47,442 bases of DNA, from the IMG/VR virus record IMGVR_UViG_2909298281_000005. One strand, 5' to 3'. The position numbers and the translations under genes were made by a program. How positions within the stretch are numbered: position 1 is the stretch's first letter; the number at the start of each line of letters is the position of its first letter. The DNA comes from a virus (Duplodnaviria > Heunggongvirae > Uroviricota > Caudoviricetes). The notes beneath the pieces are model-generated. The model was not told the origin of the DNA. It did no database searches and saw only the letters and a program-made list of their open reading frames with translations. Positions 1,285 to 47,442 of the stretch are shown in pieces.

Positions 1285-1575
1285 AATTCACAGATGTTTT
1301 TTCTCATTCTGTGGTTTCCTTGGCGCTTTCTAGGTTTTTTCAGATAGTTACATTTTTTCAAAAGCATCCTGAGTTCGATCTTACTATCTATCTGTGGCCT
1401 ATTTCTGTCCCATATATGCCCCAAAAAACACCCCAACAGATAAGCAGTCTTTTCATGGTGTTACGCGTAAAAACAATAACGGCTTGAAATTATTCAATAC
1501 ACTCTCGAAAGTGCATCAGCCAACCGCAGAACGTTATTGCATACAACGTTTCTGCGGCATATCACGAAACGATTA

Positions 1576-1650
1576 CTTAATGACTGGGACTTCAGACCAC
1601 TCAATATCCGGTACAATTATGTATCAACGCAGTTTAACAACACCCTATAT
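1576..1650 (-). pseudogene. degenerate remnant of a tail fibre assembly (tfa) 3-prime end
   Basis: Minus-strand translation ...VPDIEWSEVPVIK-stop resembles the C-terminus of the intact Tfa at 3018 (...[12 protein letters not shown]-stop); in-frame stop upstream. Confidence 0.4.
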
Positions 1651-2000
1651 TTAATCCAGAGTGCGAGCAACGTTGTCCCTTTCTCTTTTGCACTCTTAAA
1701 ATATACGATTACTTAAGTGAAGATGCTTGACGAATCGCCAAATAAAACATCTTCATCAGCATAAAAATCCATATATGATTGAAAATTTAGCCATTAATAC
1801 CATTCATATCTGAATACTGACCTAATATGCTTACTAACCGTGAGAAATCTTTTTTTTCGACTTAATCACTCGAAATAAACTTTCACTCAATTGAAAACAA
1901 TTAGCTACAATTATCATTGCAATATCAAATCAAACATAACAACTTGCATAAATTCTCATGGGATACAGCATCAGTTGTGCCAAACACATAAGGAATTGAA

Positions 2001-2198
2001 ATGGACGGAGAAAGCTTTAACTTTGATGACAATGATATTGAATTTATTGCTTCAATGTATGCATCATGTAAATTATCAGGAAGTATCGCCCCCATAATGC
2101 ATATAATGGTTAGCATTCCAAGAAATAAGAAAAAACAATTCTACGAACGAGTTGAGCATTATTGTAGTTTATATTCCAATAAAAACCCACCTTCTTAA
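2001..2198 (+). CDS. hypothetical small protein (65 aa) in AT-rich segment
   Basis: ORF preceded by AAGGAA about 6 nt upstream of ATG; no recognisable domain. Confidence 0.25.
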   Translation: MDGESFNFDDNDIEFIASMYASCKLSGSIAPIMHIMVSIPRNKKKQFYERVEHYCSLYSNKNPPS

Positions 2199-2330
2199 AT
2201 TCGCTGCATTCTAGTGGATTCCATTAAGAAAACAATGACATACACTCAAACACATCTTTTTTATCAACAGTGAATTTCAGTTCGGCCAGTTTTTACCAGC
2301 TATTATAAAAATAGCATCCATATAAAGTTT

Positions 2331-2440
2331 TTACCCCACAGGTACAGCTGGCCATTCGATAACCGCACTAAGGAAGTGCCAACACGATATCAGCAAGACC
2401 CGATATTTCTTCCATGCCGCCAGCAACGATGTTAAGGTTA
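2331..2440 (-). pseudogene. remnant of a second tfa 3-prime end (about 35 codons)
   Basis: Minus-strand translation ...[32 protein letters not shown]-stop parallels the Tfa C-terminus ...[32 protein letters not shown]. Confidence 0.5.
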
Positions 2441-3017
2441 AATTAATTATAAAAAAATATATTATAATTCCATCTTCGCATTAAATTTTAACCTTTAATC
2501 TCCACACGGAACAAGTTGCATAGGTGACTATATTAGGAAAACTTATAACCACCAAAACATTTGCTTTGCAAACAAAAACAGTGACCATTGACTCTAAGAA
2601 AATTCCGATCTATTGTTAGGGTCATCAAAGTTACTTAACAGTATTCCGAAATGAAAATACAAAGCAAGCTAATTGTCTTATTAAACATTATCATTGCATT
2701 TATATTATTTGAGCTTTTAGCTCAAAAATTTGGTTTGAGTACATTATTTTAAAGCAAGATAAACAATATCGGGCACTCTAGTTTTTATAATTAACAATTA
2801 AACGTCCATAAAATGTTATTTACTTTTGTTCGCTATTGTCATATCTTAATATAGTGGCTTACGCCACTCTACTTTCATCACATTTTGTACGTTTATGTAC
2901 TCGCTATGAAGCTCTTTCATGGCGATTTTTTATTCTTAATCCAAGAACATACTCCCTACCTATAGCAAAATCACTTTTTGAACAAAAGAATAACGTATTT
3001 AGGTAATCATTACGAAT

Positions 3018-3599
3018 TTACCCTATAGGTGCTACTGGCCATTCAATATCCGGTGCAGTTGTTGTATTAACACGGTTCAGCAACACCCGATACTTTTTCC
3101 AGGCTTCCAGCAACGAGTTTTCTTCCTCCGTTGCGATTTCCAGATCTACAGCATCCTGAAGTGGCGCAATATGCTCATTCGCTGCCTGCATCAGGCTGTT
3201 TTTTGTTTCTTCCGCCTCCCGGATCCGGAATAGTTTTTCTGCTTCTGCATCTTTCACCCAGGCTGTGCCGTTCCACTTCTGATATTCCCCTCCCGGCGAC
3301 AACCAGGTAACATTTTCCGGTAACGAGCCAAGTTCAGAAATAAATAACGCGTCGCCGGAAGCCACGTCATAGACGGTTTTTCCCCGATGATCTTCAACGA
3401 GATGCCACGATGCCTCATCACTGTTGAAAACAGCCACAAAGCCAGCCGGAATATCTGGCGGTGCAATATCGGTACTGTTTGCTGGCAGACCTGTATGAGG
3501 CGGAATATATGCGTCACCTTCACCAATAAATTCATTAGTTCCGGCCAGCAGATTATAAATTTTTATGGTCCGTGGTTGTTCACTCATTCTGAATGCCAT
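3018..3599 (-). CDS. tfa: tail fibre assembly protein Tfa
   Basis: 193-aa ORF directly downstream of stf; translation closely resembles lambda Tfa as recalled. Confidence 0.85.
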
Positions 3600-26172: not shown

Positions 26173-26469
26173 CTGGCAGGTGAAAATCAGGTTTATTTAT
26201 ATATTTCAATTAATTGCAAACTAGTCTAATGACAGGGAGAAAAAAATATTGTACAGCTGAAGAGAGAAATAACTTTTAATTATCAATAAATTACCAAACA
26301 TGCTGCCGCCGCCATGGAAATGCAAAAACTAGCCTTTTTCCGCGACGCTCCCGCCCCGTGGCAGGACACACTGCCGGGAGGACCCATTAAAAACTGCTAA
26401 GCTGGGCTCGTTATGGGTAACCGGCTCATTTAAACCGTCTGGTCTGTTTCCTCCGGCTCTACAAAAATA

Positions 26470-27147
26470 ATGTCCATCATTTTTAATGGACACTATCGTA
26501 TGAAACACCGGACCTGGATCACTGAAGCTTTACGTCTTCACTTTGAAGAACATTTACCCCGGGTTGTGGCCGGGCGTCGCCTGGGTGTACCAAAATCAAC
26601 AGTTTGTAGTATGTTCGTGCGCTTTCGGAGAGCTGGCCTTTCGTGGCCTTTGCCCGCAGGCATGTCGGAGCAGGAACTTGATGCCTGCCTTTACGGACAA
26701 TTTTCCACGGTACCAGTCGTACGTCCTGAAAGCACCGTTATATCCGAAGCCCCCGTGGTAAAAAAACGTCCCCGGCGGCCCAACTTCCCTTATGAGTTTA
26801 AAATCGCCTTAGTGGAGCAGTCACTGCAGCCCGGAGCCTGTGTGGCGCAGATCGCCCGGGAAAACGGAATCAACGATAACCTGCTCTTCAACTGGCGCCA
26901 TCAATACCGGAAAGGTGGCCTGCTGCCTTCCGGAAAAAATATGCCGGCACTGCTTCCCGTGACGTTAACGCCGGAGCCGGATAATAAAATCCCGGCCCCC
27001 GCACAGGAACCAGAGCAGATAAATACACCGTCCGACAGTCTGTGTTGTGAGCTGGTTCTGCCGGCCGGAACTCTCAGGCTTAAAGGTAAACTGACGCCGG
27101 CGTTATTACAGACACTTATCCGCGAAATAAAAGGGAGCAGCCACTGA
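26470..27147 (+). CDS. IS66 accessory protein (orf1/TnpA-like); true start may be internal
   Basis: First ORF of the IS; HTH-like segments. Confidence 0.65.
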   Translation: MSIIFNGHYRMKHRTWITEALRLHFEEHLPRVVAGRRLGVPKSTVCSMFVRFRRAGLSWPLPAGMSEQELDACLYGQFSTVPVVRPESTVISEAPVVKKRPRRPNFPYEFKIALVEQSLQPGACVAQIARENGINDNLLFNWRHQYRKGGLLPSGKNMPALLPVTLTPEPDNKIPAPAQEPEQINTPSDSLCCELVLPAGTLRLKGKLTPALLQTLIREIKGSSH

Positions 27148-27494
27148 TGATATCTCTCCCTGCAGGTTCGCGTATCTGGCTGGTTGCAGGTATCACCGAT
27201 ATGCGAAATGGCTTTAACGGCCTGGCATCAAAAGTTCAGAACGTCCTGAAGGATGACCCGTTCTCCGGACACCTGTTCATCTTCCGCGGACGCCGGGGTG
27301 ACCAGATAAAAGTGTTGTGGGCTGACAGTGACGGACTGTGCCTCTTCACCAAACGCCTGGAGCGGGGCCGCTTCGTCTGGCCAGTCACCCGTGACGGCAA
27401 GGTGCACCTTACTCCGGCTCAGTTATCCATGCTTCTTGAAGGTATCAACTGGAAGCACCCGAAACGAACGGAACGCGCTGGAATCCGCATATAA
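27147..27494 (+). CDS. IS66 orf2 (TnpB-like)
   Basis: 115-aa ORF MISLPAGSRIWLVAGITDMRNGFNGL... typical of IS66 orf2. Confidence 0.85.
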   Translation: MISLPAGSRIWLVAGITDMRNGFNGLASKVQNVLKDDPFSGHLFIFRGRRGDQIKVLWADSDGLCLFTKRLERGRFVWPVTRDGKVHLTPAQLSMLLEGINWKHPKRTERAGIRI

Positions 27495-27513
27495 CCCGTT
27501 GTAAAGTGAGGAT

Positions 27514-29085
27514 ATGGACACCTCACTTGCTCATGAGAACGCCCGCCTGCGGGCACTGTTGCAGACGCAACAGGACACCATCCGCCAGATGGCTGAATAC
27601 AACCGCCTGCTCTCACAGCGGGTGGCGGCTTATGCTTCCGAAATCAACCGGCTGAAGGCGCTGGTTGCGAAACTGCAACGTATGCAGTTCGGTAAAAGCT
27701 CAGAAAAACTTCGTGCAAAAACCGAACGACAGATACAGGAAGCACAGGAGCGAATCAGCGCACTTCAGGAAGAAATGGCGGAAACGCTGGGTGAGCAATA
27801 TGACCCGGTACTGCCATCCGCCCTGCGCCAGTCTTCAGCCCGTAAACCGTTACCGGCCTCACTTCCCCGTGAAACCCGGGTTATCCGGCCGGAAGAGGAA
27901 TGCTGTCCTGCCTGTGGTGGTGAACTCAGTTCTCTGGGATGTGATGTGTCAGAGCAACTGGAGCTTATCAGCAGCGCCTTTAAGGTTATCGAAACACAAC
28001 GTCCGAAACTGGCCTGTTGCCGGTGCGACCATATCGTGCAGGCACCAGTACCTTCAAAACCCATTGCACGCAGTTATGCCGGAGCGGGGCTTCTTGCCCA
28101 TGTTGTCAGCGGGAAATATGCAGACCATCTGCCGTTATACCGCCAGTCAGAAATATACCGTCGTCAGGGAGTGGAGCTGAGCCGTGCCACACTGGGGCGC
28201 TGGACAGGTGCTGTTGCTGAACTGCTGGAGCCGCTGTATGACGTCCTGCGCCAGTATGTGCTGATGCCCGGTAAAGTCCATGCTGATGATATCCCCGTCC
28301 CGGTCCAGGAGCCGGGCAGCGGTAAAACCCGGACAGCCCGGCTGTGGGTCTACGTCCGTGATGACCGTAACGCCGGTTCACAGATGCCCCCGGCGGTCTG
28401 GTTCGCGTACAGTCCGGACCGGAAAGGTATCCATCCACAAAATCACCTGGCCGGTTACAGCGGTGTGCTTCAGGCCGATGCTTACGGTGGTTACCGGGCG
28501 TTATACGAATCCGGCAGAATAACGGAAGCCGCGTGTATGGCTCATGCCCGGAGAAAAATCCACGATGTGCATGCAAGAGCGCCCACCTACATCACCACGG
28601 AAGCCCTGCAGCGTATCGGTGAACTGTATGCCATCGAGGCAGAGGTCCGGGGCTGTTCAGCAGAACAGCGTCTGGCGGCAAGAAAAGCCAGAGCCGCGCC
28701 ACTGATGCAGTCACTGTATGACTGGATACAGCAACAGATGAAAACACTGTCGCGTCACTCAGATACGGCAAAAGCGTTCGCATACCTGCTGAAACAGTGG
28801 GATGCACTGAACGTGTACTGCAGTAATGGCTGGGTGGAAATCGACAACAACATCGCAGAGAACGCCTTACGGGGAGTGGCCGTAGGCCGGAAAAACTGGA
28901 TGTTCGCGGGTTCCGACAGCGGTGGTGAACATGCGGCGGTGTTGTACTCGCTGATCGGCACATGCCGTCTGAACAATGTGGAGCCAGAAAAGTGGCTGCG
29001 TTACGTCATTGAACATATCCAGGACTGGCCGGCAAACCGGGTACGCGATCTGTTGCCCTGGAAAGTTGATCTGAGCTCTCAGTAA
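27514..29085 (+). CDS. IS66 family transposase (orf3)
   Basis: 523-aa ORF with N-terminal coiled-coil, CPACGG zinc-finger-like motif and DDE-type core. Confidence 0.9.
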
Positions 29086-29448
29086 ATATCAATACGGTTC
29101 TGACGAGTCGCTTACCGTTATGGCAACAATTCCATACGAAGTTTTATAAGTAAGAAGTTGCATGCCATCAGGCACCACCGCTGCTGATTACGACCATCAA
29201 TGTGAACCACAACCAGCGCATCGGGTTACAGATAATTCATATGCTCAACGAGCATAAAGTTCAGAACGTTTAACTTCAGGTGCTTTGTTTTAGCCATACC
29301 GTCCGTAACAACATGATGGAAGCGGGTACTTAGAGAACACTATGGATAGAAACTTGCATTACTAATCTCACAATTTATTCATACAGTTATATGATAAATA
29401 TATTATTAGTTATAACATGTTGAAAATTCATAAAGGAGAATTACCTGT

Positions 29449-33519: not shown

Positions 33520-34052
33520 TTTTCCTCACATATGTCATATAGTAAAGGATTATATATACCGTTGTTTTGGACGCTCAAACAGCGAATCAGATCAAATAAA
33601 ACGCACATTTGTTAACATTTACACAAAGTCTGCGTGGGATATTCTGAAAGAATATCCATAATGTGGAGAGAATCTATTGAAGTGCATGGTGCCGGGTGCC
33701 TCCCGGTGAATTCAGTACCAGCACCTGAATCCGCGATTATCCCATATACCTACTCGCTGATTGCCCCTCCGCACAGGGGGATTCACCATGCCAGTTTCTT
33801 TTAACAAACTCCCCGCAAACCAGAGAACAGTCAACCGCCTGAATTGTGAAGTATTTAAAAATTTCTCCCGCTAACTGATACCCGGCTAACAGTCTGGCGT
33901 TTTCTTTTTCAGCAACGGGAAAGCAACAACCACCACACCCGCCACCAGCACACCGTCAGCCAGCACTGACATTATCCGGCTGCTGCAATGCCATTCACAA
34001 AAACAGTAAGCAATCACTTTTTACCGTAACAGGTGATAATCCAGATATGTAT

Positions 34053-34516: not shown

Positions 34517-34593
34517 TGGCGCGCTGTACTGGATTCGAACCAGTGACCGATTGCTTAGAAGGCAATTGCTCTGTCCGGCTGAGCTAACAACGC
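34517..34593 (-). tRNA. tRNA-Arg (anticodon UCU)
   Basis: Cloverleaf readable: acceptor GCGTTGT/ACAGCGC, anticodon loop CTTCTAA, T-arm GGTTCGAATCC, 3-prime CCA encoded. Confidence 0.8.
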
Positions 34594-34627: not shown

Positions 34628-34640
34628 CCCCCCCCCCCCC
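34628..34640. repeat. homopolymer tract, about 13 C on plus strand (G on the phage coding strand) between the two tRNA genes
   Basis: Read directly from sequence and from the poly-Pro run in the overlapping antisense track ORF. Confidence 0.7.
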
Positions 34641-34701: not shown

Positions 34702-34777
34702 TGGTGGCCCTTGCTGGATTTGAACCAGCGACCTGGCGATTATGAGTCGCTCGCTCTCACCACTGAGCTAAAGGACC
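34702..34777 (-). tRNA. tRNA with anticodon CAU (Ile2/lysidine type or Met), ileX/ileZ-like
   Basis: Acceptor GGTCCTT/AAGGGCC, anticodon loop CTCATAA, T-arm GGTTCAAATCC, 3-prime CCA encoded; resembles E. coli ileX as recalled. Confidence 0.75.
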
Positions 34778-37989: not shown

Positions 37990-38145
37990 TTACTCCTCAG
38001 GTTCGTAAGCTGTGAAGACAGCGACCTCCGTCTGGCCGGTTCGGATTCGTACCTCGCAGAGGTCTTTCCTCGTTACCAGTGCCGTCACTATGACGGTTAA
38101 ACAGATGACGATCAGGGCGATTAGCATCGCCTTTTGCTGCTTCAT
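37990..38145 (-). CDS. hokD: Hok family toxin HokD-like (51 aa)
   Basis: MKQQKAMLIALIVICLTVIVTALVTRKDLCEVRIRTGQTEVAVFTAYEPEE; track ORF has an in-frame 19-codon upstream extension. Confidence 0.8.
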   Translation of the reverse strand: MKQQKAMLIALIVICLTVIVTALVTRKDLCEVRIRTGQTEVAVFTAYEPEE

Positions 38146-38887
38146 AGCCTGCTTCTCCTTGCCTTTCGGCACGTAAGAGGCTAACCTACGTGTGTAGAGC
38201 ATAGATATGGCCTCAGATTAATGTTAAGCGTCTTGCCGGACGCGTAATGTTAACTGGGGCTTTTCTCTATCTGCCTTTGGTGTTGATGCCCGAGGCAGAT
38301 AGCCTCAAGCACCCGCAGCAATTCTACTTAACTACCGTTACCTCGCCAATATGAAATCAATCAGAAAGGTGATCCATAAGAACAACAGCAAGACAATAAA
38401 TTGCCATTACAGCAGCAATAGCCAGCGCACATTTGAGAACCAGCACCACAACCTCCTGTATTGGACGTACACCAGTCCTGATAAATATGAGGCTGTCTCG
38501 TCAGTGATTCAATACAACTACTGGGTATAGTTTCTATGATTTTGTTCTGTGGAAATGGAAAACAGCAACCAGTCACCACCAGCACTTCTTTAAACATGCC
38601 AAGTCACACGCAAGCCAACATTATAGTTCCCTTTGAGCGAGCAGATGAAGCTAGCAAAAATATTGATCACTTAGGATGCATTACTAACGTTGCTATGTGT
38701 TAACGAACAGGGAGTGGGTCATCAGCATAAATATTTATGCAGTAGGTTTCTTTTAGGACTAAATTAATCAAAAACATTTAGATAAAATTATAAAATCAAG
38801 AAATTGGTGGCAATTAATCTTTAATTGTGCCAGCTGAATTTCGTTATTATAGAAGATTAGCTTTTTTTTGAATGTTTGGAGAGTAAA

Positions 38888-39582
38888 ATGTTAGAACCAC
38901 CAAAGAGTTATAATGAAATGTTGCCTATGCTCCATAAGGCGACTTTTATTACTACATTTATATTTTACCTATCATTAGTCATTTATGGCTACATGCCATT
39001 GGTTGGCATTAATGCCAAGTATATCCCCCCGTTAAAGACTACGAGGAATTTATTAAATGGATATTAACCTTTGGCATATTACCAATTGCATCTTCAGTTT
39101 TTTGGTCAGTAATTAGTGGAGCTTTAGATCTACATAATAATGTAGCAAAAATTATTGGAATAAGGAAGATGTGGGATAGTCATTTAATTATTAAACCATT
39201 AGCAAAAATTGCAGGCGTTACGAGAAAATTAACTACTGATGAATCTCACAAGGTAATGAGTAAACTGTATTACCCAGAAGTTAAAGAGTTAAAAGACAAA
39301 CATTACGTTGAACTTTTCTGGAACAAAGTTTATTACTTTTGGGTTTTCTTTGAACATACAGTAATCGCATTTGTTACTATTTTAATAATAAGTATCGCCA
39401 AATTAACAAATATATTCTCTGTTACTGGCTCTTTAATTAATCTTTGGTTGTGGATTATTTCTCTTGTCGCATTTGACTTCCTTATTTTCATAGCATCAGT
39501 TAAACCAAGAACAGAAAGCCAAGTAAGACAAATACCTGATAGCAAAATAAAAGAATTCTTTAACAATAACAATATTTTTTAA
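38888..39582 (+). CDS. predicted 4-TM membrane protein, reading frame broken at a C6 run (39025-39030); appears as two track ORFs
   Basis: Track ORFs 38876..39067 and 39169..39582 are in adjacent frames; the second frame is open and hydrophobic from 39013; adding one C restores about 231 aa; GGAGAG upstream of ATG 38888. Confidence 0.5.
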
Positions 39583-39594
39583 ACGAGGTTGATT

Positions 39595-40248
39595 TTGAAT
39601 TACAAAATAAATGGAATAAACATACGTTCAGAAAATGCAGCGAAACCGCACACTATGCCATCTAACTATCTCTGTAAACAGATTGAAAGCACTAATAAAA
39701 ATGGCAATGCCCTTGATTTTGGATGTGGAAAACTTAGATATTCAGAACAATTAGTAAATAAATTTGAAACTGTGACATTTTTAGATTCCAGAAGACAACT
39801 AGAAAGAGTGCAAATTATCAGAGGTGTACAAACCACGATTCCAGATTACGTGATAAATAACTATAAGAATGCTAATATTGTTTCTTATGAAAATATAGAT
39901 AAAATAACAAATCATTATGATTTCATACTTTGCGCAAACGTGCTTTCCGCAATTCCATGTGAATCCACAATTCACAAAGTCCTCAGTGCGATTAGAGAAT
40001 TATTAAAGAGTGATGGTGAAGCACTGATTGTCAATCAATACAAAAGTTCTTATTTCAAGAGGTACGAGAGCGGTATTAAACATTTGCATGGGTATATATA
40101 CCAAAACTCTCGTAATGCTTTCTACTATGGTTTATTAGATGTGGATACTGTAAGTAAAATATGCTCAGATAATAATTTAGAAATAATAAAATCATGGAGC
40201 AAAGCAGGTAGTTCATATGTGGTTGTTGGTAAACATATACATATTTAG
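39595..40248 (+). CDS. class I SAM-dependent methyltransferase (substrate unknown)
   Basis: Motif I-like LDFGCGKLRYS near N-terminus, downstream acidic/hydrophobic motifs; starts 7-13 nt after membrane protein stop with GAGG upstream; no DNA-MTase DPPY/NPPY motif seen. Confidence 0.6.
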   Translation: MNYKINGINIRSENAAKPHTMPSNYLCKQIESTNKNGNALDFGCGKLRYSEQLVNKFETVTFLDSRRQLERVQIIRGVQTTIPDYVINNYKNANIVSYENIDKITNHYDFILCANVLSAIPCESTIHKVLSAIRELLKSDGEALIVNQYKSSYFKRYESGIKHLHGYIYQNSRNAFYYGLLDVDTVSKICSDNNLEIIKSWSKAGSSYVVVGKHIHI

Positions 40249-40562
40249 TTTATTTCAACAAATTATTAGAAAGAGTGATTTGCTTGTTAATTATTAGCTC
40301 GGCAGTGCCGGATCAACATGACCCTGCCACTTAGGCCATTGCCGGTTTACCTACTTTTGTAAGGTTCAGCATGAAGTTTTTATATACTCTTCCTAATATC
40401 AATAGTGATGCTCGCTTATGTTAGCTGCTTCTTGTACATAGTAGCCTTCTCCGACAGTACTGCAATGAGCGGAGAGTAAAAGTCGATAAACAATAAGGAG
40501 GTTCACAATAAATATTTCTCGGTGAAACTTTCAAAGCATTCTCTGTTTTGCTAAATCGACAA

Positions 40563-41545
40563 TTATAAATCAACAACATTTAGTGTTATATCAATATTAT
40601 TTAGCCTTGCAATCTCTGATGAATCACTTGCTATTTTAGCTTTTAATTTATCAATATTAATCATATCTTCATGGCTTATATAAACCATATCACCTTGGTT
40701 AACTTTAGATTTGTTCACTATGGCTTGAATAACAGACAAATCATCCATTACACCTCTCATAAATTTCACCATGCTTTGATCTTTGAAGTCAGATATCGAT
40801 TTTGAACGTTGCTTACGTTGAATTGTTCCATTACACCTCTCATAAATTTCACCATGCTTTGATCTTTGAAGTCAGATATCGATTTTGAACGTTGCTTACG
40901 TTGAATTGTTCCTTTTGTAATTACTTCATTAATTTCTTTTAAACCAGTGAGCATATCAGACAGACTGCCTTCGCAACTCATCCGATGTTTTATTGCATTG
41001 CGATTAATAATATTGAGTATAATTTCGAGTGAATCTTTATCACTCCATGGATGTAATGATGTATAATCATGATGGCGTCGAATGGCGTCAATCATATCCT
41101 GGACCATATCTTCATCTGCTTTATCGCAAAGTTCATTCACGAAATAGCTGGGGTCGATTATTTTACAATAACTTGGAGTTAGGTATCTTGAGGCTTTACA
41201 AAAACCAAAAATATATAAAGTAGAGTATTTATCTTTCAGACTCTCTCCTATTTCATTTGCTTCCTCAAAAGATTCGATAGTTTTTTTAATTTTTGCTGGA
41301 CTTGCATTCGTAGTAACTTGAACTGCTATCATGTTTTTATTATCAGCTAAATCAATGGCGGGAAAATTAACTTTAATCTGATTCATGTTTACCAGTTCAC
41401 CCATTTTCAGCGCGCGAAACATAAAGATGGTCAATGACTCAATTATTCTTTCCATGTCATGAAAGCCTGCCTGTTTGCGTTGCGCGATATAAAGCTGGAG
41501 TAGTGCAATATCACTCTGTAAGTTTCTAATAAGTGGATCAATCAT
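40563..41545 (-). pseudogene. defence-island-like protein (about 300 aa) disrupted by an 83-bp tandem duplication
   Basis: Track ORFs 40766..41545 and 40563..40772 share the duplicated peptide MVKFMRGVM...; N-terminal motif ...NQIKVNFPAIDLADNKNMIAVQVTT... Confidence 0.55.
40745..40912. repeat. perfect tandem duplication, 2 x 83 bp
   Basis: Unit CCATTACACCTCTCATAAATTTCACCATGCTTTGATCTTTGAAGTCAGATATCGATTTTGAACGTTGCTTACGTTGAATTGTT appears twice head-to-tail. Confidence 0.85.
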
Positions 41546-41797
41546 AGCTAATAATCCTTTTCAATGAAGCTGGAGGTGTATTTAACTATTAGTTAAATTT
41601 CTATTTTTATAGAAACAAGCTTTACAACTTCATCAAAGTTTCTCAAATCCTAATCCACTTTGCAAATCCACTAACCATGCTGAATGCTTTCTGTTGTTAA
41701 ACATATCCGCTGCTGGCACCAAGCAGACAAACACACTAACTCTACCCTACTCCACAAAAGAGCCAATCAATATCTGAACTAATAAACTTTAATCTCA

Positions 41798-42220
41798 TCA
41801 CTTCAATAAATATCGAGCATTTCCCTGATAGAATGCTAGTATGCGCTGCATAACTTCACTCTTCCGGCACTCGCGACAGATTATGTTCTGACGCCTGTCG
41901 TAGCGACGTATTTCTCCGTCAGGTAATGACCAGATAAGGTCCGGATCAACCGCAGATGGTTCCTTCAGCTTTGCCCTTGAGAGCTTTTTACGGGCATTTT
42001 GCCAGTCCTTACGCGCCTGTTCAGACGGGAATAACCCGTAACCAGAGTTGTATACATCGCCGCTGGCAACCAGCTCTCTTGCGAGAACGCTCATCAGATA
42101 TCTTGTCGCACCTGTCTTGACTTCCAGTTGCCGTAACGTCTCACGACCGCTCTGGCGCACGAGTTCCACCACCTGCCCTTTAATTTTTTCCCGCTCTTCT
42201 TGTGTAAAAACTTTTGCCAC
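41798..42220 (-). CDS. hypothetical protein in replication module (P position)
   Basis: 140-aa ORF downstream of O-like gene; HTH-like segment; no confident family. Confidence 0.4.
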   Translation of the reverse strand: MAKVFTQEEREKIKGQVVELVRQSGRETLRQLEVKTGATRYLMSVLARELVASGDVYNSGYGLFPSEQARKDWQNARKKLSRAKLKEPSAVDPDLIWSLPDGEIRRYDRRQNIICRECRKSEVMQRILAFYQGNARYLLK

Positions 42221-45490: not shown

Positions 45491-45548
45491 TTTCTGGTGA
45501 CGTTTGGCGGTATCAGTTTTACTCCGTGACTGCTCTGCCGCCCTTTTT
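45491..45548 (+). ncRNA. dicF: DicF small RNA (cell-division-inhibitory sRNA)
   Basis: TTTCTGGTGACGTTTGGCGGTATCAGTTTTACTCCGTGACTGCTCTGCCGCCCTTTTT matches DicF as recalled; located between ydfC and dicB with terminal hairpin plus T-run. Confidence 0.65.
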
Positions 45549-45968: not shown

Positions 45969-46023
45969 GGTGATGCTGCCAACTTACTGATTTAGTGTAT
46001 GATGGTGTTTTTGAGGTGCTCCA

Positions 46024-46299
46024 GTGGCTTCTGTTTCTATCAGCTGTCCCTCCTGTTCAGCTACTGACGGGGTGGTGCGTAACGGCAAAAGCACCGCCGG
46101 ACATCAGCGCTATCTCTGCTCTCACTGCCGTAAAACATGGCAACTGCAGTTCACTTACACCGCTTCTCAACCCGGTACGCACCAGAAAATCATTGATATG
46201 GCCATGAATGGCGTTGGATGCCGGGCAACTGCCCGCATTATGGGCGTTGGCCTCAACACGATTTTACGTCACTTAAAAAACTCAGGCCGCAGTCGGTAA
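46024..46299 (+). CDS. insA: IS1 InsA
   Basis: [42 protein letters not shown]... Confidence 0.85.
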
Positions 46300-46721
46300 C
46301 CTCGCGCATACAGCCGGGCAGTGACGTCATCGTCTGCGCAGAAATGGACGAACAGTGGGGATACGTCGGGGCTAAATCGCGCCAGCGCTGGCTGTTTTAC
46401 GCGTATGACAGGCTCCGGAAGACGGTTGTTGCGCACGTATTCGGTGAACGCACTATGGCGACGCTGGTGCGTCTTATGAGCCTGCTGTCACCCTTTGACG
46501 TGGTGATATGGATGACGGATGGCTGGCCGCTGTATGAATCCCGCCTGAAGGGAAAGCTGCACGTAATCAGCAAGCGATATACGCAGCGAATTGAGCGGCA
46601 TAACCTGAATCTGAGGCAGCACCTGGCACGGCTGGGACGGAAGTCGCTGTCGTTCTCAAAATCGGTGGAGCTGCATGACAAAGTCATCGGGCATTATCTG
46701 AACATAAAACACTATCAATAA
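46218..46721 (+). CDS. insB: IS1 InsB frame (expressed as InsAB' by -1 frameshift at the A-run TTAAAAAACTC)
   Basis: Track ORF in -1 frame overlapping insA; A6C slippery run visible near 46273-46280. Confidence 0.8.
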
Positions 46722-46736
46722 GTTGGAGTCATTACC

Positions 46737-47049
46737 AAAGGCGTCTATAACGTTAAAAATGTGATTGTTGCCGATCGCATTGATGAACGACTGGAAAAAG
46801 CGAAAGAGAGCGGGGCAGACTGGGCGATTAATAACAGCCAGACACCGCTTGGCGAGATTTTCGCTGAAAAAGGCATCAAGCCGACATTAATTATCGATGC
46901 GGCTTGTCATCCTTCTATCCTGAAAGAGGCCGTAACGCTGGCTTCTCCAGCGGCACGTATTGTATTGATGGGCTTCTCCAGTGAACCGTCTGAAGTGATT
47001 CAGCAAGGAATTACCGGAAAAGAACTCTCTATTTTCTCTTCACGCTTAA
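46737..47049 (+). pseudogene. internal fragment of a Zn-dependent (MDR-type) dehydrogenase gene trapped between two IS1 copies (possibly rspB-like)
   Basis: In-frame from IS1 end to next IS1 end: ...VIVADRIDERLEKAKESGADWAINNSQ...IIDAACHPSILKEAVTLASPAARIVLMGFSSEPSEV...; no start or stop of its own. Confidence 0.55.
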
Positions 47050-47442
47050 GGTAATGACTCCAACTTATTGATAGTGTTTTATGTTCAGATAATGCCCGAT
47101 GACTTTGTCATGCAGCTCCACCGATTTTGAGAACGACAGCGACTTCCGTCCCAGCCGTGCCAGGTGCTGCCTCAGATTCAGGTTATGCCGCTCAATTCGC
47201 TGCGTATATCGCTTGCTGATTACGTGCAGCTTTCCCTTCAGGCGGGATTCATACAGCGGCCAGCCATCCGTCATCCATATCACCACGTCAAAGGGTGACA
47301 GCAGGCTCATAAGACGCACCAGCGTCGCCATAGTGCGTTCACCGAATACGTGCGCAACAACCGTCTTCCGGAGCCTGTCATACGCGTAAAACAGCCAGCG
47401 CTGGCGCGATTTAGCCCCGACGTATCCCCACTGTTCGTCCAT
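47050..47442 (-). mobile_element. second IS1 copy, inverted, truncated by the window edge
   Basis: Starts GGTAATGACTCCAACTTATTGATAGTG (reverse complement of IS1 right end); sequence identical to copy 1 where compared. Confidence 0.85.
47065..47442 (-). CDS. insB: IS1 InsB (partial, runs off window)
   Basis: Track ORF identical in translation to insB of the first copy. Confidence 0.8.

What the first reader, a model, noticed from the sequence alone, without database searches (positions are those of the whole stretch)
40745..40912. Perfect 83-bp tandem duplication disrupts the defence-like gene
Two identical head-to-tail copies of an 83-bp unit (not a multiple of 3) split the gene into 259-aa and 69-aa ORFs that share the peptide MVKFMRGVM. 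Perfect identity implies a very recent event; tandem duplications are reversible by recombination, so this could act as an on/off switch or reflect counter-selection against a costly gene.
Basis: seen in the sequence. Interest (0 to 1): 0.5.

Follow-up and report, generated by a model that had tools for sequence, protein, structure and literature searches.

The report
Tandem duplication knocks out prophage nuclease gene
A perfect 83-bp head-to-tail duplication really does break a prophage-borne, defence-like nuclease gene in this E. coli strain, but it is an inherited knockout shared by a few related isolates and one of many independent ways E. coli has lost this gene, with no evidence that it is a programmed on/off switch.

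Summary
Units 40744-40826 and 40827-40909 are 100% identical, with a 3-bp TCC microhomology running to 40912. Removing one unit restores a 299-aa ORF identical to WP_000566845.1, which has an N-terminal SMEK (PD-(D/E)xK-type nuclease) domain and a C-terminal four-helix bundle. The gene lies in a low-GC cargo slot of a Qin-like lambdoid prophage.

The duplication (gene nt 637-719, codons 213-240) shifts the frame after residue 239. This removes 60 conserved residues.

It is not an assembly artefact and not a private event. The window is CP024252.1, and the same junction occurs in two other NCBI assemblies. Those assemblies have since diverged from the window by a SNP, a homopolymer indel and an IS1 rearrangement. 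The junction is absent from 5,426 complete RefSeq E. coli genomes, 146-151 of which carry the gene single-copy.

E. coli also holds at least seven other independent null alleles: A7 tract -1 and +1 frameshifts, Q215*, Q218*, Q229* and an IS3-family insertion.

Best reading: an ordinary loss-of-function allele made by microhomology template switching, in a dispensable or costly gene of a decaying prophage. Reversion is mechanistically possible but unshown, and nothing supports a switch.

The parts
40744..40826 (-). Copy 1 of the 83-bp unit in + strand order. This is the second copy in gene orientation, gene nt 720-802.
   Evidence: TRF, the repeat finder D1, gene coordinates.
40827..40909 (-). 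Copy 2 of the 83-bp unit in + strand order. This is the first copy in gene orientation, gene nt 637-719, codons 213-240. It encodes TIQRKQRSKSISDFKDQSMVKFMRGVM.
   Evidence: It contains the invariant family residues K221 and F226.
40910..40912 (-). 3-bp microhomology (TCC on +, GGA on the gene strand), identical to the first 3 bases of each unit. This is the likely template-switch point.
   Evidence: The self-match run is 86 = 83 + 3. The sequence was read directly.
40766..41545 (-). Truncated 259-aa ORF: native SMEK protein residues 1-239 plus a 20-aa out-of-frame tail (EQFNVSNVQNRYLTSKIKAW). It equals WP_252098107.1.
   Evidence: SMEK_N covers aa 10-120.
40563..40772 (-). 69-aa ORF equal to native residues 231-299, the C-terminal remnant. 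Its ATG-GTG overlaps the TGA stop of the 259-aa ORF (ATGGTGA), so termination-reinitiation is conceivable. There is no obvious Shine-Dalgarno sequence.
   Evidence: Coupling is inferred from the sequence and was not tested.
40563..41545 (-). The whole disrupted gene. With one unit removed it is a 900-nt gene for a 299-aa SMEK-domain protein (WP_000566845.1).
41281..41287 (-). A7 tract on the gene strand (T7 on +), codons 86-87. It is intact here but is the site of independent -1 and +1 frameshifts in other strains (EC-107, L65).
   Evidence: The frameshift products occur on about 210 contigs (-1) and 17 contigs (+1).
41580..41580 (-). SNP 35 nt upstream of the start codon (TTAAAC to TTAAAT on the gene strand). 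All three duplication-bearing assemblies share it, and none of the 151 complete genomes carrying the gene has it. It is a marker of the duplication lineage.
   Evidence: Every hit has at least one mismatch.
38888..39582 (+). Neighbouring 231-codon membrane-protein gene, frameshifted in this genome by a C7 to C6 contraction at 39025-39030. It is intact in the sister assembly NQYK01000012.1.
39595..40248 (+). Intact class I SAM-dependent methyltransferase (217 aa), convergent with the SMEK gene. It belongs to the same low-GC cargo island.

Best explanation
The feature is a loss-of-function allele of a prophage-borne gene. The gene is stand-alone and encodes an N-terminal SMEK (PD-(D/E)xK-type) nuclease domain followed by a C-terminal four-helix bundle.

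How it arose (inferred): during replication the nascent strand switched template between two GGA/TCC trinucleotides 83 bp apart and copied gene nt 637-719 twice.

What it does: 83 is not a multiple of 3, so translation leaves the native frame after residue 239 and stops 20 codons later. Half of helix 229-251 and all of helix 264-287 are lost, including family-invariant I245 and K274. The nuclease core, with invariant D65, Q76, T78 and K85, is still encoded. The product is most likely misfolded or non-functional (inferred).

How it spread: the allele arose once, on a haplotype marked by the 41580 SNP, and has since been inherited vertically in a small E. coli clade. It persists because the gene is dispensable or mildly costly in a prophage that is already decaying. 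Precise loss of one copy by RecA-independent slippage or template switching could restore the gene. That is a by-product of the mutation type, not a programmed switch.

Shown here: the duplication, the frameshift, its inheritance, conservation of the lost region, and the many other null alleles. Inferred: loss of function, the mechanism of origin, and the selective regime.
For: - The duplication and its 3-bp microhomology are in the sequence.
- The single-copy reconstruction matches the intact gene of relatives exactly.
- All listed hits among the 151 complete genomes carrying the gene are single-copy, with a span of 1,018 against 1,101 bp.
- A 24+24 junction probe has no match in 5,426 complete genomes.
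- The junction is present in three independent NCBI assemblies: CP024252.1 (the window itself, 100% identical), NQYK01000012.1 and JAAPSG010000011.1.
- The sister assembly differs from the window only at 38762 and the C6/C7 tract. JAAPSG01 lacks the IS1 rearrangement.
- The family is about 299-301 aa with 99-100% coverage across Proteobacteria. The lost C-terminus contains invariant and near-invariant columns.
- The AlphaFold model has pLDDT 86.5, with confident helices at 229-251 and 264-287.
- Independent null alleles exist: A7 tract -1 and +1 frameshifts (about 210 and 17 contigs against 538 for the intact allele), Q215*, Q218* and Q229*, and an IS3-family insertion at nt 679.
- 6 of 60 sampled complete genomes have the gene split.
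- The prophage is decaying. It has an IS66-family insertion with an 8-bp target-site duplication, IS1 copies replacing the right end, and a frameshifted neighbouring gene.
Against: - Loss of function was not measured. The catalytic domain is intact, and the 69-aa remainder could be made by termination-reinitiation at ATGGTGA, so some activity might survive.
- Neutral decay and selection against the gene cannot be told apart with these data.
- Some homopolymer frameshift alleles may be sequencing errors. Many noisy long-read contigs were seen and set aside. The A6 allele, however, is on about 210 contigs, including early draft genomes.
- Contig counts reflect sampling of clones, not numbers of independent events.
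Confidence: 0.75

Rival explanations
1. Reversible contingency switch. The duplication is an OFF state of a costly nuclease, and populations regenerate ON cells by precisely deleting one copy. This would be bet-hedging between phage protection and cost or autoimmunity, as with tandem-duplication phase variation of pneumococcal capsule genes.
For: - Perfect tandem repeats of about 100 bp delete measurably and without RecA in E. coli. In a plasmid assay with extended growth, a uup radD double mutant reached 8%, reported as 96-fold above wild type. That works out to roughly 1e-3 in wild type (my arithmetic).
- Tandem duplications inside ORFs act as reversible switches in pneumococcal wchA/cap3A and in Ralstonia phcA.
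- The gene is defence-like, so plausibly costly.
Against: - Only one duplication allele, with a single junction, was found anywhere.
- It has been stable long enough to be shared by at least 3 diverged assemblies.
- No single-copy genome carries the lineage's 41580 allele.
- The same gene is also lost through irreversible nonsense and IS mutations, which a switch would make unnecessary.
- Nothing predisposes the site beyond a 3-bp microhomology.
Confidence: 0.1
2. Positively selected inactivation. The intact nuclease was harmful in this lineage, for example through self-targeting or a clash with another element, possibly aggravated by the upstream 41580 mutation. Knockouts of any kind were therefore favoured, and the duplication happened to be the one fixed here.
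For: - At least eight independent null alleles of five mutational types occur within one species.
- The gene is otherwise well conserved across genera, implying purifying selection elsewhere.
- A lineage-specific SNP 35 nt upstream of the ATG creates TTAAAT from TTAAAC, which is closer to the -10 consensus.
Against: - About 90% of sampled complete genomes with the gene keep it apparently intact.
- The intact allele is the most common one (538 contigs).
- The prophage is decaying generally, so relaxed selection is enough to explain the loss.
- The promoter scan found no site upstream of the gene, and the region's hits equal the shuffled expectation (8 against 7.5).
- No cost was measured.
Confidence: 0.3
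3. Function retained as a split protein. The frameshifted ORF ends at a TGA that overlaps the ATG-GTG of residues 231-232 in the second copy. Ribosomes would reinitiate there and make the 69-aa C-terminal piece, which reassembles with the 259-aa piece into an active two-chain protein.
For: - The two ORFs together encode every native residue, with residues 231-239 present in both.
- The stop and start overlap as ATGGTGA.
- The C-terminal helices form a separate bundle in the model.
Against: - There is no recognisable Shine-Dalgarno sequence before the restart.
- The break falls inside helix 229-251, not at a domain boundary.
- The N-fragment carries a 20-aa foreign tail.
- No natural two-gene version of this family was seen among 108 homologue clusters.
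Confidence: 0.05
4. Assembly or sequencing artefact: the extra 83-bp copy does not exist in the cells.
For: - CP024252.1 is not among the complete RefSeq E. coli genomes searched.
- It shows a homopolymer difference from its sister assembly, which could reflect long-read errors.
Against: - An identical junction is present in three separate assemblies from different projects, including draft assemblies. One of those contigs was seen in 3 samples.
- Assemblers tend to collapse tandem repeats, not create perfect ones.
Confidence: 0.02

Closest known systems
Tandem-duplication phase variation of pneumococcal capsule genes (cap3A, wchA) and of Ralstonia solanacearum phcA
   Same: A perfect head-to-tail duplication inside an ORF breaks the frame and can in principle be removed precisely to restore the gene (papers cited).
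   Different: In those cases many independent duplications with different endpoints arise at high frequency, and reversion was observed. Here there is a single allele with one junction, inherited in a small clade, no observed revertant, and irreversible null alleles of the same gene in other strains.
Experimental 101-bp tandem-repeat deletion substrates in E. coli (pSTL57 tetA assay)
   Same: The repeat length and perfect identity are similar. They show that one copy can be lost without RecA, by slippage or template switching behind the fork (PMC7145654). The reverse of that process, at a 3-bp microhomology, is the likely origin of this duplication.
   Different: Those substrates are engineered, carried on plasmids and assayed under selection. 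This one is natural, chromosomal, 83 bp long, and not known to be under any selection for reversion.
SMEK nuclease effector domains of short-Argonaute (SMEK-APAZ) and short-Lamassu (SMEK-LmuA) defence systems
   Same: The N-terminal domain is the same one (Pfam PF21941; PADLOC Aga_REase profile, N-terminal part only). It is a PD-(D/E)xK-like fold used as an effector in defence systems.
   Different: There is no APAZ domain and no Argonaute, LmuB or LmuC neighbour. The C-terminal half is a four-helix bundle with no Pfam family. The gene is stand-alone, with variable neighbours. No experimental work on this architecture was found.
Decay of cargo genes in cryptic lambdoid prophages (Qin/Kim type of E. 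coli)
   Same: The backbone is the same: hokD/sok, rem, DicF, dicB, ydfA-C, Q antiterminator, RusA. IS insertions and frameshifts accumulate in a grounded prophage.
   Different: The cargo slot here holds the SMEK gene together with a methyltransferase and membrane-protein pair. By my recollection, K-12 Qin carries relBE/flxA at this position. Other strains carry a HEPN-domain gene there.

Membership tests
SMEK domain-containing protein (Pfam PF21941 SMEK_N) | Sequence match to the family profile above the curated cut-off | tested here: met
   80.3 bits against a gathering cut-off of 27, E 1.6e-22, residues 10-120. All 108 homologue clusters carry PF21941. RefSeq names the intact protein 'SMEK domain-containing protein'.
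SMEK domain-containing protein (Pfam PF21941 SMEK_N) | Restriction-endonuclease-like (PD-(D/E)xK) fold with conserved catalytic-type residues | tested here: inconclusive
SMEK domain-containing protein (Pfam PF21941 SMEK_N) | Nuclease activity | not testable with these tools
   This needs biochemistry. Only SMEK-APAZ with short pAgo has been tested, according to PMC10810196.
Short-Argonaute SMEK-APAZ system (SPARDA-like) | APAZ domain fused C-terminal to the nuclease domain | tested here: not met
   The PADLOC Aga_REase-PNTD1-PNTD2 profile matches only residues 8-146, on profile positions 9-143 of 463. The C-terminal half is a four-helix bundle with no Pfam hit.
Short-Argonaute SMEK-APAZ system (SPARDA-like) | Adjacent short pAgo gene | tested here: not met
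   The neighbours are DUF977, a methyltransferase and a membrane protein in E. coli. In distant taxa they are SLATT_5, Abi_alpha, or a helicase, DUF87 and SymE.
Short Lamassu (SMEK-LmuA effector) | LmuB (SMC-like) and LmuC genes next to the effector gene | tested here: not met
   No SMC-like neighbour occurs in any of the contexts read. SMEK as an LmuA effector is reported in PMC12663957.
Tandem-duplication phase-variable locus (pneumococcal cap3A/wchA type) | Perfect, frame-breaking tandem duplication inside the ORF | tested here: met
   83-bp unit, 2.0 copies, 100% identity, frameshift after residue 239.
Tandem-duplication phase-variable locus (pneumococcal cap3A/wchA type) | Recurrent, independent duplications with different endpoints in the same gene | tested here: not met
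   Only one junction was found. The other null alleles characterised are homopolymer frameshifts, three nonsense mutations and an IS3-family insertion. The search was limited to alleles reachable through exact protein look-ups.
Tandem-duplication phase-variable locus (pneumococcal cap3A/wchA type) | Both states within one clone, with observed reversion | not testable with these tools
   This needs raw reads or culture work. Indirectly, no single-copy genome with the lineage marker 41580-A exists among the 151 complete genomes carrying the gene.
Known anti-phage defence system (PADLOC-DB v2) | Whole-protein match to a defence-system model, with the system's other components present | tested here: not met
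   Only a domain-level match to the N-terminus of a pAgo-associated protein was found. The neighbouring methyltransferase gives a weak hit to mad2 (9.7e-5). 'Defence-like' therefore rests on the domain and the genomic context only.

The most novel reading that the evidence does not exclude
The 83-bp duplication is a heritable but reversible OFF state of a costly stand-alone SMEK nuclease defence gene. In this reading, rare precise deletions regenerate protected cells under phage attack. A further possibility is that the stop-start overlap (ATGGTGA) lets the cell make both halves, keeping a low-activity two-chain form. That would make spontaneous microhomology duplications a general, unprogrammed way for bacteria to park defence genes instead of losing them.
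Probability: 0.08. Interest if true: 0.5.

Novelty: new member of a known kind. Interest (0 to 1): 0.25.

Why it matters
As a single event this is ordinary: a microhomology-mediated tandem duplication that knocks out a cargo gene of a decaying prophage. The survey around it is modestly useful. One uncharacterised stand-alone SMEK-nuclease gene, conserved across Proteobacteria and sitting in a defence-type slot of Qin-like prophages, has been inactivated in E. coli at least eight separate times by five different kinds of mutation. That pattern fits rapid turnover of defence genes, or a cost of carrying them. It also marks the gene as a reasonable candidate for a phage-challenge and toxicity test. 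The duplication allele provides a natural knockout that could in principle revert, which would suit such an experiment.

Tried and rejected
- **Homopolymer allele counts.** I tried to count A7/A6 tract alleles in complete genomes with short seed-exclusion queries. Both queries returned no match, including the wild-type control. BLAST's low-complexity filter probably masks the T-rich tract. The approach is invalid and its results are not used. The same trick is valid for the duplication junction, because that sequence is not low-complexity and a 96-nt query over it matched 151 genomes.
- **Junction scans.** Scans of the species-representative genome collection and of the metagenome collection found nothing. 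These are uninformative, since E. coli has a single representative there.
- **Phage collection.** No match to the gene region.
- **Structure job.** I used P0005 instead, which is 98% identical.
- **Promoter and terminator scan of 40200-41850.** 8 promoter-like sites against 7.5 expected, no terminator, and nothing upstream of the SMEK start. I therefore make no promoter claim for the 41580 SNP.
- **Pfam and PHROGs.** Nothing useful for the C-terminal half or for the 231-aa neighbour.
- **Three-gene system idea.** I considered that the methyltransferase, the membrane protein and SMEK form one system. I rejected this because distant homologues have unrelated neighbours and the methyltransferase-membrane pair is more widespread than SMEK (at least 1,000 contigs against 538).
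- **Clustering of nonsense alleles.** Q215*, Q218* and Q229* cluster inside the duplicated segment only because I found them through the short downstream ORFs. This is an ascertainment artefact.
- **Noisy contigs.** Contigs with many 1-bp homopolymer deletions (L015, L016, L018, L021, L030-L032) were treated as long-read error and not counted as alleles.

Full report
**The observation.** The window contains two perfectly identical head-to-tail copies of an 83-bp unit, at 40744-40826 and 40827-40909. Tandem Repeats Finder gives period 83, 2.0 copies, 100% matches and score 338, and the repeat finder agrees. The self-match at offset 83 runs for 86 bases. The three bases after the second copy (TCC, 40910-40912) therefore repeat the start of the unit, which is a 3-bp microhomology. 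About 2e-43 such repeats are expected by chance in 47 kb. On the - strand the region reads as a 259-aa ORF (40766..41545) and a 69-aa ORF (40563..40772). The first keeps native residues 1-239 and adds a 20-residue out-of-frame tail. The second is native residues 231-299, so both contain MVKFMRGVM. Removing one unit gives a single 299-aa ORF. Its DNA is identical to the intact gene of E. coli CRE10.

**What the gene is.** The 299-aa protein matches Pfam SMEK_N (PF21941) at 80.3 bits against a cut-off of 27, over residues 10-120. It also matches the N-terminal third of a PADLOC profile for an Argonaute-associated REase protein. In the literature SMEK is a nuclease effector domain. It is fused to APAZ in short-Argonaute systems (PMC10810196) and used as an LmuA effector in short Lamassu (PMC12663957). 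I found no paper on the stand-alone architecture seen here.

- **Family.** A search of 5.8 billion proteins returned 108 clusters. Nearly all are 293-305 aa and cover 99-100% of the query. They come from Enterobacteriaceae, Pseudomonas, Vibrio, Xanthomonas, Cupriavidus, Chromobacterium and others.
- **Conservation of the lost part.** In alignments of 40 and 70 members, residues 240-299 include invariant I245 and K274 and near-invariant I270, D271, I277 and A285.
- **Position of the lesion.** The duplication covers codons 213-240. It cuts one helix of the bundle and deletes the next. The nuclease core, with invariant D65, Q76, T78 and K85, remains encoded.

**Genomic context.** The gene lies in a low-GC island of 31-37% GC, against about 50% for the surroundings. 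The island sits in a Qin-like lambdoid prophage, between the replication genes (DUF977, an O-like gene, YdaT, cro/cI) and hokD/sok, rem, DUF968, RusA and the Q antiterminator. The island also holds a convergent pair: a 231-codon membrane protein and a class I SAM methyltransferase. In other strains the same prophage slot carries a HEPN-domain gene. Distant homologues have unrelated neighbours, many of them defence- or toxin-type: SLATT_5 with an integrase, Abi_alpha, or a helicase, DUF87 and SymE. The gene therefore behaves as a stand-alone cargo of defence or mobile islands. 'Defence-like' is a fair label, but no function has been tested.

**Is the duplication real, and how widespread is it?** Among 5,426 complete RefSeq E. 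coli genomes, 151 carry the gene. Every listed hit spans 1,018 bp against the 1,101-bp query, meaning one copy. A 24+24-base probe across the junction cannot seed on single-copy DNA, and it has no match in that collection. It also has no match in the species-representative genomes or the metagenomes. An exact look-up of the 259-aa product, however, found it in three NCBI assemblies.

| Assembly | Relation to the window |
|---|---|
| CP024252.1 | 100% identical over 12.7 kb, so it is the source of the window |
| NQYK01000012.1 | Contig seen in three samples; differs from the window only at 38762 and the C6/C7 tract |
| JAAPSG010000011.1 | Lacks the IS1 rearrangement at the right end |

All three contain the junction. 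The duplication is therefore genuine and arose once. Its haplotype carries a private SNP at 41580, which none of the 151 complete genomes carrying the gene has. It has been inherited long enough for further changes to accumulate. 'Very recent' is not justified. Perfect identity of 166 bp is expected over any timescale relevant to strain divergence.

**Other ways the same gene has been lost.**
- **Homopolymer frameshifts.** In EC-107 the A7 tract at codons 86-87 is A6, and in L65 it is A8. The products of the -1 allele occur on about 210 contigs and those of the +1 allele on 17. The intact allele occurs on 538 contigs and the duplication allele on 3.
- **Nonsense mutations.** Look-ups through the short downstream ORFs found three CAA to TAA changes: Q215* in three samples, Q218* in one, and Q229* in CP148435.1.
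- **IS insertion.** One contig has the gene joined at nt 679 to 73 nt of the end of an IS3-family element.
- **Complete genomes.** In an evenly spaced sample of 60 of the 146 complete genomes carrying the gene, 6 have it split.
- **Cautions.** Contigs with many homopolymer deletions were treated as long-read noise. The clustering of the nonsense alleles near the duplication is an artefact of how I searched. Contig counts reflect sampling of clones.

Even so, at least eight independent null alleles of five mutational kinds exist in one species. Most of them cannot revert.

**Most likely mechanism.**
- **Origin (inferred).** A replication template switch or slipped mispairing between two GGA/TCC trinucleotides 83 bp apart copied nt 637-719 twice. 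No hairpin or longer repeat flanks the endpoints.
- **Consequence (frameshift shown, loss of function inferred).** The frameshift removes conserved helices, and the protein probably loses its function.
- **Persistence (inferred).** The gene is dispensable or mildly costly in a prophage that is already decaying. The prophage has an IS66-family insertion with an 8-bp target-site duplication at 26417-29115. IS1 copies replace the right end from 45969. In this genome the neighbouring membrane-protein gene is frameshifted by a C7 to C6 contraction.
- **Reversibility.** Precise loss of one copy is mechanistically easy. Tandem repeats of 101 bp delete without RecA in E. coli (PMC7145654). This is a property of the mutation type and does not show a switch.

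**Rivals.**
- **Contingency switch.** Precedents are pneumococcal cap3A/wchA and Ralstonia phcA. Here it lacks recurrent duplications and observed revertants, and the irreversible null alleles elsewhere argue against it. I give it about 0.1.
- **Positive selection for inactivation.** This is plausible, at about 0.3, and compatible with the main reading. The 41580 SNP changes TTAAAC to TTAAAT 35 nt upstream of the ATG. The promoter scan gives no support for a promoter there.
- **Functional split protein.** This is conceivable because the frameshifted ORF stops at a TGA overlapping the ATG-GTG of residues 231-232. There is no Shine-Dalgarno sequence, the cut falls within a helix, and no natural two-gene version exists. 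I give it about 0.05.
- **Artefact.** Three independent assemblies effectively exclude this.

**Verdict.** The feature is an ordinary loss-of-function tandem duplication, and a new allele of a known kind of mutation. The affected gene is uncharacterised, defence-like and repeatedly lost in E. coli. Interest is low to moderate.

Noticed in passing
window 39025-39030 (gene 38888-39582, + strand): A C7 to C6 homopolymer contraction frameshifts the neighbouring 231-codon membrane-protein gene in this genome. The sister assembly with the same duplication (NQYK01000012.1) has C7 and an intact gene. The resulting 137-aa product occurs on 72 contigs in the big collection, so the allele, or others giving the same ORF, recurs. 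It could be genuine slippage or a long-read error in CP024252.1.
   Followed up: partly
window 41580: A SNP 35 nt upstream of the SMEK start codon (TTAAAC to TTAAAT on the gene strand). All three duplication-bearing assemblies share it, and none of the 151 complete genomes carrying the gene has it. It may alter a -10-like hexamer, but the promoter scan gave no support for that.
   Followed up: partly
window 41281-41287: The A7 tract at codons 86-87 of the SMEK gene is a recurrent frameshift site in other strains. The A6 products are on about 210 contigs and the A8 product on 17. My attempt to count these alleles in complete genomes failed because of BLAST's low-complexity masking.
   Followed up: partly
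L014, L017, L019 and L022 (contig starts, equal to gene nt 702/703, about window 40760 in single-copy terms): Four contigs from four different samples and pipelines begin exactly at nt 702/703 of the SMEK gene, 17 nt before the end of the duplicated unit. This does not fit the k-mer arithmetic for a break at the 83-bp repeat, and no IS end is attached. It is unexplained.
   Followed up: no
window 26417-29115: An IS66-family element (HTH_Tnp_1 ORF, TnpB_IS66, DDE_Tnp_IS66) is inserted with an 8-bp target-site duplication (CGTTATGG) between the small-terminase gene and the lysis region. It is absent from the closest relative, TCM_B_2.
   Followed up: yes
window 45969-47442: Collinearity with related prophages ends at an IS1 inverted repeat at 45969. 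Two IS1 copies flank a fragment of an ADH_zinc_N gene. The relatives have ydfD, an exonuclease and an excisionase here, so this prophage end appears to be rearranged or deleted.
   Followed up: partly
window 34628-34630: The length of a poly-C run differs by 2-3 bases from relatives, between the two tRNA genes (34520-34593 and 34705-34777).
   Followed up: no
hits H70 and H71 (strains 200164 and VE-V10-F), same prophage slot as window 38800-41600: In other Qin-like prophages the slot between the replication genes and hokD holds a HEPN domain-containing protein where this window has the SMEK gene. The slot appears to be an exchangeable cargo or defence hotspot.
   Followed up: no
window 38888-40248: The membrane-protein and methyltransferase pair is more widespread than the SMEK gene (each exact protein on at least 1,000 contigs against 538). 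It also occurs with SMEK in Citrobacter. The methyltransferase has a weak PADLOC hit to mad2 (9.7e-5). Its role is unknown.
   Followed up: partly
window 40249-40562: The 314-bp region between the convergent methyltransferase and SMEK genes has no predicted intrinsic terminator on either strand.
   Followed up: no
window 1285-3000; 3058-3256; 33630-33820; 45492-45543; 38140-38314: A 32-38% GC stretch with no ORF of 90 aa or more lies between an MFS transporter gene and the tail-fibre assembly gene. Rfam hits above the gathering scores are IS009 (3058-3256), STnc100 (33630-33820), DicF (45492-45543) and sok (38140-38314).
   Followed up: no
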